DNA of 63,560 nt, counting the filler, from Dugesia japonica (taxonomy: Eukaryota): NCBI GenBank assembly GCA_001938525.1. It is 6 parts of 6 records of this genome, joined end to end, with 100 filler letters (N's around TTAATTAATTAA, not from the genome) between each part and the next. Parts side by side here need not be neighbours in the genome. Positions count along the whole stretch, not along the records: positions 54,886 to 63,560 come from MQRL01333035.1; 5 more parts are not named here. One strand, 5' to 3'. Below the pieces are notes generated by a model. It saw only the letters and a program-made list of their open reading frames with translations. It was not told the DNA's origin and made no database searches. The position numbers were made by a program, and so were the translations under genes. The number at the start of each line of letters is the position of its first letter. Positions within the stretch are counted from its first letter, which is position 1. Of this stretch, positions 60,632 to 60,795 are shown piece by piece.

Positions 60632-60795
60632 ATAATTCAAATTGCCCGGGGTTTTTTGAAGGTTGAGGTATAATAGATCTATATAGATGCGGCAAGCAGC
60701 CATGGCTGCTGATTCAACGACCCATGGGTCGTATCCGCATCTATATAGATCTATTATACCTCAACCTTCAAAAAACCCCGGGCAATTTGAATTAT
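60632..60795. other. T/Y-shaped terminal hairpin: perfect 61-bp stem with two 16-nt palindromic arms
   Basis: 60632-60692 is the exact reverse complement of 60735-60795. Arms agcagccatggctgct (60695-60710) and acgacccatgggtcgt (60717-60732). Confidence 0.95.

What the first reader, a model, noticed from the sequence alone, without database searches (positions are those of the whole stretch)
60632..60795. Perfect T/Y-shaped terminal hairpin resembling AAV/densovirus ITRs
Seen: a mismatch-free 61-bp stem capped by two 16-nt palindromic arms, both centred on CCATGG, and an internal palindrome atctatatagat. Established: this is the architecture of rolling-hairpin telomeres. Inference: it is the replication origin/telomere. 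A perfect stem next to a damaged Rep suggests recent capture, or a defective genome maintained in trans.
Basis: partly seen in the sequence, partly recalled or inferred. Interest (0 to 1): 0.8.

Follow-up and report, generated by a model that had tools for sequence, protein, structure and literature searches.

The report
Hairpin end of chimeric parvovirus-like insert
The hairpin is real and marks one end of a young parvovirus-like genome in an animal's DNA, from an odd, little-studied virus group that appears to cut its hairpin ends with an enzyme borrowed from circular DNA viruses.

Summary
Observation confirmed: a mismatch-free 61-bp stem with two 16-nt palindromic side arms, single-copy in the window. 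It is the right end of a 4.26-kb element (56538-60795). The element carries a CRESS-type HUH Rep, a separate helicase-only parvoviral NS1 (226 aa), and, on the other strand, a PLA2-domain ORF. A diverged ~190-nt inverted repeat links it to a different, unbranched hairpin at the left end.

This gene set matches the informal 'Cressrep parvoviruses' (Buck et al. 2024; closest by eye Parvovirus dugesia6041) and the planarian PEVE/PIVE elements, not AAV or classical densoviruses. Two deposited relatives begin with unbranched terminal palindromes, so a telomere role is well supported.

Two of its three breaks are short introns, one at the same position and phase as in a relative; one frameshift remains. 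No capsid core was found; a scaffold gap lies where it would be.

Likely mechanism (inferred): rolling-hairpin replication in which the CRESS Rep supplies the nuclease that NS1 lacks. The T shape, unlike ends and PLA2 ORF differ from the relatives I could see. New variant of a known kind.

The parts
60632..60795 (.). T-shaped terminal hairpin (right telomere), 164 nt, 41% GC
60632..60692 (+). Stem arm A, 61 nt; holds CCGGGCARTT on the minus strand (60640-60649) and the 12-nt palindrome 60677-60688
60695..60710 (.). Side arm 1, perfect 16-nt palindrome with CCATGG core
60717..60732 (.). Side arm 2, perfect 16-nt palindrome with CCATGG core
60735..60795 (+). Stem arm A', exact reverse complement of arm A; outer end abuts the flank
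60460..60660 (-). Right copy of the diverged subterminal inverted repeat; holds box X twice in opposite orientation (60468-60511, 60568-60633)
59784..60464 (+). Helicase-only parvoviral NS1-type SF3 protein, 226 aa, open frame, no HUH domain
59447..59747 (+). Small Cys-pair ORF (one CxxC in each of two frames; frame change near an A run around 59670-59683); function unknown
   Evidence: weak zinc-ribbon hit only, E 0.0055
58302..59618 (+). CRESS-type Rep in pieces: HUH motifs II and III, Walker A and B, motif C; two introns and one frameshift at about 59286-59304
   Evidence: motif comparison by eye
58645..58687 (+). Intron 1, 43 nt, GT-AG, 12% GC, phase 1, just before HUH motif II; same place and phase as a 42-nt GT-AG stretch in Parvo5097
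   Evidence: (read by eye)
59457..59501 (+). Intron 2 candidate, 45 nt, GT-AG, AT-rich
58062..58274 (+). 70-aa ORF in the divergent intergenic region; no family match; may not be a gene
57121..58042 (-). PLA2-domain ORF (PF08398, E 5.8e-13) with basic N-terminus and low-confidence helical C-terminal part; runs into the gap
57072..57120 (.). Scaffold gap of 49 N, where a capsid core would be expected
56794..57071 (-). 90-aa open frame after the gap; by eye resembles the C-terminal tail of Parvo5097 and Parvo6041 VP (unproven)
   Evidence: no Pfam or PDB support
56595..56775 (+). Left copy of the diverged subterminal inverted repeat; CCGGGCARTT at 56604-56613, box X at 56703-56768
56538..56596 (.). 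Left terminal hairpin, unbranched, 28-nt arms 79% complementary, 14-bp core, 3-nt loop
   Evidence: z -4.5, 0 of 200 shuffles

Best explanation
The hairpin is the right-hand telomere of a young, probably chromosomally inserted copy of a linear ssDNA 'Cressrep parvovirus' (PEVE/PIVE/Parvo6041 kind). Shown: the hairpin, the gene set, the diverged inverted repeat, the second hairpin, the helicase-only NS1. Inferred from parvovirus biology: the terminal hairpin folds back to prime host DNA synthesis and is regenerated by nicking and strand displacement (rolling hairpin), which should give flip/flop isomers of the 42-nt loop. Inferred from the anatomy: NS1 has no nuclease domain, so the spliced CRESS-type Rep must make the nick, and the 226-aa helicase most likely serves as unwinding or packaging motor, like AAV Rep40. 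The PLA2 ORF is a minor virion entry protein. This copy has a Rep frameshift and no visible capsid core, so it is probably defective.
For: Helicase: closest of 252 hits are stand-alone 222-244-aa proteins (P0001 38%, E 2e-33). 27 of 30 hits scanned (30 of the 150 listed) match Parvo_NS1. It sits in a 6-row clade of 176-244-aa proteins, SH-aLRT 95, quick tree only. Model pLDDT 93.7, best PDB folds AAV2 Rep68/Rep40. Rep: Atlas top hits are Cressdnaviricota Reps, 0.95-0.96. By eye its Walker A block (GKTxxAxAHF type) is shared with 11 of 14 listed Cressrep parvoviruses. By eye Parvo6041 NS1 (228 aa) is colinear with hit P0003, which is 32% identical to the window protein. Ends: inverted-repeat score 75.5 versus 1.7+-10.1, 0 of 300 shuffles; 17.5 versus -6.1+-8.3, 0 of 300, without box X. 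Relatives: 2 of 8 contig 5' ends seen begin with perfect palindromes (Parvo3867a 74-bp stem, Parvo3723 34 bp visible, 3-nt loops; hand count). Introns: the pattern scan of 58043-60464 found exactly two candidates, both at Rep frame breaks. No gap or linker separates the hairpin from 2.7 kb of flank.
Against: No numerical comparison with the named relatives was made; those links are by eye. Three word-based homolog searches found nothing. No nick site found: no canonical CRESS nonanucleotide at either end. No jelly-roll capsid detected. The flanks hold no recognisable host gene (one weak hit among 29 frames, 20 or so of them flank frames), so integration rests on the assembly alone. The relatives' hairpins are unbranched, not T-shaped, and 6 of 8 5' ends seen show none. 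One relative (Parvo5097) is deposited as circular.
Confidence: 0.72

Rival explanations
1. Same virus and same telomere, but an episomal genome that the assembler joined to host DNA at its ends; not integrated.
For: Perfect stem and open ORFs. PEVE is described as extrachromosomal. Draft assembly with many gaps.
Against: Both ends run into flanking DNA without a gap. A Rep frameshift and a split Cys ORF fit decay (or sequencing error). Integrated relatives are on record: PIVE and contigs labelled endogenized.
Confidence: 0.12
2. A capsid-less or capsid-optional HUH transposon derived from the virus (PIVE-like), which inserts by its own Rep at the hairpin ends.
For: Both termini are kept. A 7-bp terminal inverted repeat with a possible 4-bp TGAA duplication frames 56540-60795. 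A parvovirus-like repeat with NS1, PF08398 ORF and 5' hairpin has over 50 copies in acorn worm.
Against: The left flank is a low-complexity AAT/TGAA repeat, so the duplication may be chance. One copy in the window. A possible VP tail follows the gap.
Confidence: 0.08
3. The virus is circular and the hairpin is an internal rolling-circle origin captured at the breakpoint.
For: CRESS-type Rep; divergent genes as in circular CRESS viruses (recalled); Parvo5097 deposited as circular.
Against: No nonanucleotide in the loop. Each end has its own hairpin and an inverted, not direct, repeat. 13 of 14 relatives are deposited as linear, two with terminal palindromes.
Confidence: 0.05
4. Host MITE/foldback element or fold-back library artefact next to the viral genes by chance.
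For: The window has foldback elements elsewhere (54000-54290).
Against: No second copy. Structured two-arm loop and an arm that stops at 61 bp, unlike a fold-back read. The arm's outer motif recurs only beside the left hairpin (3 matches, all at element ends; pattern chosen after seeing it). The inverted repeat runs into the stem.
Confidence: 0.03

Closest known systems
'Cressrep parvoviruses' of Buck et al. 2024 (PMC11071296; Parvo3071 group), above all Parvovirus dugesia6041 (BK066653) and pheidole5097 (BK066460)
   Same: CRESS-type Rep with the same motif pattern, separate helicase-only NS1 of 228-255 aa, small Cys-pair ORFs, 3.5-5.7 kb, a Rep intron at the same site as in Parvo5097, terminal palindromes in Parvo3867a and 3723 (all by eye from supplements).
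   Different: T-shaped rather than unbranched hairpin; a PLA2-domain ORF (no gene named PLA2 in the five complete gene lists seen: 3960, 4688, 4714, 5097, 6041); capsid core not seen; apparently integrated; helicase only about 30-40% identical to its nearest hits.
Planarian PEVE (Girardia tigrina) and PIVE (Schmidtea mediterranea)
   Same: Two helicases, one grouping with CRESS/geminivirus Reps and one with parvoviruses (Liu 2011 Fig. S7 labels); PIVE is integrated; terminal inverted repeats are drawn for these elements (figure legend).
   Different: In PEVE the two helicases lie on separate large and small segments; here they are adjacent. Whether this copy is PIVE itself could not be tested; the PEVE paper was not held.
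AAV and ambidensovirus ITRs (AdMADV, PMC3820778)
   Same: Long stem with two side arms; AdMADV has a 113-nt hairpin, 45-nt stem, flip/flop; SF3 fold closest to AAV Rep40/68; PLA2.
   Different: Those ITRs are the same at both ends, genes converge (AdMADV stop codons adjoin), and nuclease and helicase are one protein. Here ends differ, genes diverge, nuclease is a separate CRESS Rep.
Oomyviridae (Lineavirales; 'parvo-like hybrid viruses')
   Same: Linear ssDNA genome with CRESS Rep and PLA2-containing capsid protein.
   Different: No second NS1-type helicase in the passages read; likely stramenopile hosts; Rep relationship not tested.
Bidnaviridae
   Same: Parvoviral SF3 helicase NS1 paired with a foreign replicase; short bidnavirus NS1s are among the fold hits.
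   Different: The foreign replicase is a protein-primed PolB, not a HUH Rep.

Membership tests
Parvoviridae | Genome flanked by palindromes that fold into hairpins | tested here: met
   Right T hairpin, left unbranched hairpin; definition from PMC13426907 introduction
Parvoviridae | NS1 joining an N-terminal HUH/RCR nuclease to an SF3 helicase | tested here: not met
   226-aa ORF is helicase only; nearest hits also 222-244 aa
Parvoviridae | Jelly-roll capsid protein | tested here: inconclusive
   None detected; gap at 57072-57120; possible VP tail by eye only
Parvoviridae | Linear single-stranded DNA in virions | not testable with these tools
   Only an assembled scaffold is available
AAV/ambidensovirus ITR | T/Y hairpin with two side arms | tested here: met
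AAV/ambidensovirus ITR | Near-identical ITR at both ends | tested here: not met
   Different left hairpin; best shared block 89% over 44 nt
AAV/ambidensovirus ITR | Flip/flop isomers of the side arms | not testable with these tools
   No reads; one copy
Cressrep parvoviruses (informal, Buck 2024) | CRESS-type Rep beside a parvovirus-class NS1 | tested here: met
   Rep: motifs by eye; NS1:
Cressrep parvoviruses (informal, Buck 2024) | Parvovirus-like VP | tested here: inconclusive
   As above; 90-aa frame after the gap shares anchors with Parvo5097/6041 VP tails by eye
Cressrep parvoviruses (informal, Buck 2024) | Phylogenetic placement with the named members | not testable with these tools
PEVE/PIVE | Two helicases, one CRESS-like and one parvo/E1-like | tested here: met
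PEVE/PIVE | Sequence identity to PEVE/PIVE, planarian host | not testable with these tools
   PEVE paper not held; Repbase not available; host not determined
Circular CRESS viruses (Cressdnaviricota) | Nonanucleotide in a stem-loop origin | tested here: not met
   Five nonamer patterns matched only inside ORFs or intron 2, none at the hairpins
Oomyviridae | Rep in the Lineavirales clade | not tested
   No reference Reps stored; only passages read
MITE/foldback transposon | High copy number independent of viral genes | tested here: not met
   Within this 63.5-kb window only: single copy, linked to the viral element; genome-wide count not possible
MITE/foldback transposon | Target-site duplication | tested here: inconclusive
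   TGAA on both sides of the whole element, low-complexity left flank

The most novel reading that the evidence does not exclude
A parvovirus lineage in which NS1 lost its nuclease and a captured, spliced CRESS Rep took over both terminal resolution of hairpin telomeres and end-to-end insertion into the host germline (intact termini, 4-bp duplication). It would be a virus-transposon intermediate on the evolutionary path between circular CRESS viruses and parvoviruses, here with a T-shaped telomere and a separate PLA2 entry protein.
Probability: 0.15. Interest if true: 0.8.

Novelty: new variant of a known kind. Interest (0 to 1): 0.5.

Why it matters
The group is known from two sentences and deposited contigs in one preprint and from old planarian reports; the word 'hairpin' does not occur in that preprint's main text, which calls the CRESS Rep 'auxiliary'. 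This locus, together with palindromes at the ends of two deposited relatives, argues that the viruses are hairpin-ended and that the CRESS Rep is their only nuclease. That makes a concrete question testable: can a rolling-circle CRESS Rep resolve parvovirus-type telomeres, the step usually assumed in the origin of parvoviruses from CRESS viruses? An integrated copy also ties the lineage to a real animal host, whereas most relatives come from faeces or mixed samples.

Tried and rejected
Word-based homolog searches found nothing for the helicase or the Rep piece (longer forms; near length). GTDB scan with the Rep piece gave 2 loci at 30% identity over the Walker region only, not pursued. No tblastn match among phages; one chance 9% match of the hairpin region among plasmids. 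No Rfam family in the scaffold or window. The single-sequence model of the PLA2 ORF was poor (pLDDT 46) and its fold search gave nothing at E<=0.001. The 90-aa frame after the gap has no Pfam or PDB match. PDB sequence search gave only a weak papillomavirus E1 hit for the helicase (E 0.017) and chance hits for Rep. The 8-mer GGGCAATT, also present in the Parvo3867a hairpin, is not rare enough (4 matches, 8 of 100 shuffles) and is absent from Parvo3723: not used as a nick-site candidate. The PLA2 ORF is not a recent copy of the PLA2 stub in the window's Polinton-like scaffold (7 of 20 identities). The careful tree did not finish; only the quick tree is cited. Source names of the helicase hits remain unknown. 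Viral and metagenome contig collections stayed unchecked, so the ends and gene order of close relatives are unknown. Buck's genome maps (media-2) were too large to read and sequence cells were cut at 400 nt, so 3' ends of relatives were not seen.

Full report
1. Observation. The hairpin is as described. Arms 60632-60692 and 60735-60795 pair at 61 of 61 positions; the 42-nt loop holds two perfect 16-nt palindromes (60695-60710, 60717-60732), each with a CCATGG core; the 12-nt palindrome lies in the stem. It folds as a T, z -17.7, 0 of 200 shuffles; 0 of 20,000 loop shuffles gave two such palindromes. No 14-mer recurs elsewhere in the window.

2. Context. The window is six scaffolds joined by five 100-nt linkers; the hairpin's scaffold starts at 54886. 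The DNA is about 27% GC with mariner, non-LTR and Polinton-like pieces, which points to an AT-rich animal (inference; the host was not determined). Left of the hairpin lie, on the plus strand, a Rep in pieces (58302-59618), a small Cys-pair ORF and a 226-aa ORF (59784-60464); on the minus strand, starting at 58042, an ORF with a parvovirus-type PLA2 domain (PF08398, E 5.8e-13) that runs into a 49-N gap, then a 90-aa frame ending at 56794. The genes diverge from the centre.

3. The helicase. Word-based search found nothing. HMMER over 1.84 billion representatives gave 252 hits; the best four are 222-244 aa and the best three cover nearly the whole query. Of 30 hits scanned (of 150 listed), 27 match Parvo_NS1. 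In a quick tree of the window protein and 59 hits (those of the first 70 with at least 170 aa) it falls in a six-row clade of 176-244-aa proteins, SH-aLRT 95; some may be fragments. The model is confident (pLDDT 93.7); best solved folds are AAV2 Rep68 and Rep40; of the 50 BFVD rows shown, 46 are named parvo-, denso- or bidnavirus proteins and 4 are unnamed, among them Q91S73 (227 aa, highest identity, 29%). It is an NS1-type SF3 helicase with no nuclease domain, and short length is a family trait, not damage.

4. The Rep. The middle piece carries HUH motifs II and III and Walker A and B; Pfam gives Gemini_AL1_M below cut-off; the Atlas ranks Cressdnaviricota Reps first (0.95-0.96). Two word-based searches found no relative. 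A scan for short AT-rich GT-AG stretches in 58043-60464 returned exactly two, 58645-58687 and 59457-59501, both at frame breaks. Parvo5097 has a 42-nt GT-AG stretch at the same site and phase as the first, just before motif II (read by eye). So two breaks are introns. One frameshift remains at about 59286-59304, and the Cys-pair ORF changes frame near an A run; either may be a lesion or a sequencing error.

5. The ends. 56595-56775 aligns to the reverse complement of 60460-60660 with score 75.5 against 1.7+-10.1 (0 of 300 shuffles); without box X still 17.5 against -6.1+-8.3 (0 of 300). The repeat reaches into the stem: CCGGGCARTT occurs three times in the window, in both arms and beside the left end (pattern chosen after the fact). 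The left end has its own unbranched hairpin (56538-56596, z -4.5). The best shared block is 89% identical; at that divergence a perfect 61-bp stem has probability 6e-4. So the ends most likely differed already in the virus, and the copy is young (arm-to-arm divergence under 4.8%, 95% bound), unless the stem was repaired by conversion. No canonical nonanucleotide lies at either end. TGAA flanks both ends, but the left flank is low-complexity. The flanks have no convincing Pfam match.

6. What is known. Buck et al. 2024 (PMC11071296; read: parts 1-3 of 8, passages, rows of supplement 1, parts 222, 238, 247 and hits of supplement 2; maps unreadable) note parvoviruses with 'an auxiliary CressRep alongside' NS1 and list 14 such contigs, 13 linear and 1 circular. 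By eye, 11 of the 14 share this Rep's Walker A block, and the Dugesia virus Parvo6041 has a 228-aa NS1 colinear with hit P0003, itself 32% identical to the window protein without gaps. Of 8 contig 5' ends seen (400 nt each), 2 begin with perfect palindromes: Parvo3867a (74-bp stem) and Parvo3723 (34 bp visible), 3-nt loops, unbranched (hand count). 'Hairpin' does not occur in the main text. Liu et al. 2011 (PMC3198968; passages, section 8, supplement part 13) cover planarian PEVE and integrated PIVE, each with one CRESS-side and one parvo-side helicase, and an acorn-worm repeat with NS1, PF08398 and a 5' hairpin. The PEVE paper was not held; my recollection that it describes two regions flanked by inverted repeats is unchecked, and it may already describe such hairpins. 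Also read: PMC13426907 (passages, section 3.3: separate PLA2 ORF in megaparvoviruses), PMC12451638 (passages: linear CRESS family Oomyviridae), PMC3820778 (whole text: Y-shaped densovirus ITR), passages of PMC9896142, PMC13055364, PMC6186406 and 10.1101/551184. Ten searches listed no paper describing telomeres of this group; subscription journals are mostly not held.

7. Mechanism. Shown: anatomy and protein classes. Inferred from parvovirus biology (own knowledge): the hairpin primes synthesis and is regenerated by nick and strand displacement, giving flip/flop loops. Inferred here: since NS1 has no HUH domain, the CRESS Rep is the only nuclease and so not auxiliary; the short helicase acts like Rep40 in unwinding or packaging; the PLA2 protein aids entry. 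The nick site is unknown. The 90-aa frame after the gap shares several anchors with the VP tails of Parvo5097 and Parvo6041 by eye, unsupported by Pfam or PDB; either the gap hides the capsid core or this copy lost it.

8. Verdict. The feature is real and best read as the telomere of an integrated Cressrep parvovirus-like genome (0.72). It works like a parvovirus hairpin end, but fails membership of Parvoviridae on the NS1 nuclease and of AAV/densovirus ITRs on identical ends. The T shape, unlike ends, PLA2 ORF and integrated state distinguish it from the relatives I could see: a new variant of a known but barely described kind. Interest 0.5.

Noticed in passing
window 22059-34993: Whole scaffold is a Polinton/adintovirus-like element: protein-primed PolB in three frames (PF03175), split double-jelly-roll capsid (PF21738), penton-, protease- and pVII-like frames (by eye), a PLA2 stub, and 41-bp tandem arrays inverted at both scaffold ends. 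No integrase or packaging ATPase recognised among frames of 55 aa or more.
   Followed up: partly
window 56755-56768 and 60468-60481: Identical 14-mer with a TGAGTCA (AP-1-like, label recalled) core just downstream of the last stop codon on each strand; the Parvo6041 contig begins with GAGTCAT, also downstream of its VP.
   Followed up: partly
window 60459-60642: Box X and its inverted copy form a second, imperfect (70%) inverted repeat that overlaps the T hairpin's first 11 nt.
   Followed up: partly
window 54000-54290: Foldback/MITE-like hairpin, 139-nt arms, 86% complementary, z -23; on another scaffold.
   Followed up: partly
window 17109-18373 and 17361-17474: 85-nt inverted repeats 1.1 kb apart and an inner palindrome; possible DNA transposon remnant.
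   Followed up: no
window 45001-49401: Decayed non-LTR retrotransposon-like frames with an Ulp1-type protease piece (PF02902, weak), recalling NeSL/R5 elements (label recalled).
   Followed up: no
window 10551-13042 (minus): Five tandem intronless ORFs including a RING finger (PF00097) and, by eye, an exonuclease-like frame; possibly a mobile or viral cassette.
   Followed up: no
window 8834-9217: Mariner transposase fragment (PF01359, E 3e-10).
   Followed up: no
window 13268, 21959, 34994, 44475, 54786: Five artificial 100-nt linkers (44 N, TTAATTAATTAA, 44 N) join unrelated scaffolds; repeats reported across them are artefacts.
   Followed up: yes
Parvo3867a and Parvo3723 contigs (PMC11071296 supplement 1): Perfect terminal palindromes at the contig starts, not mentioned in the paper's main text.
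   Followed up: partly
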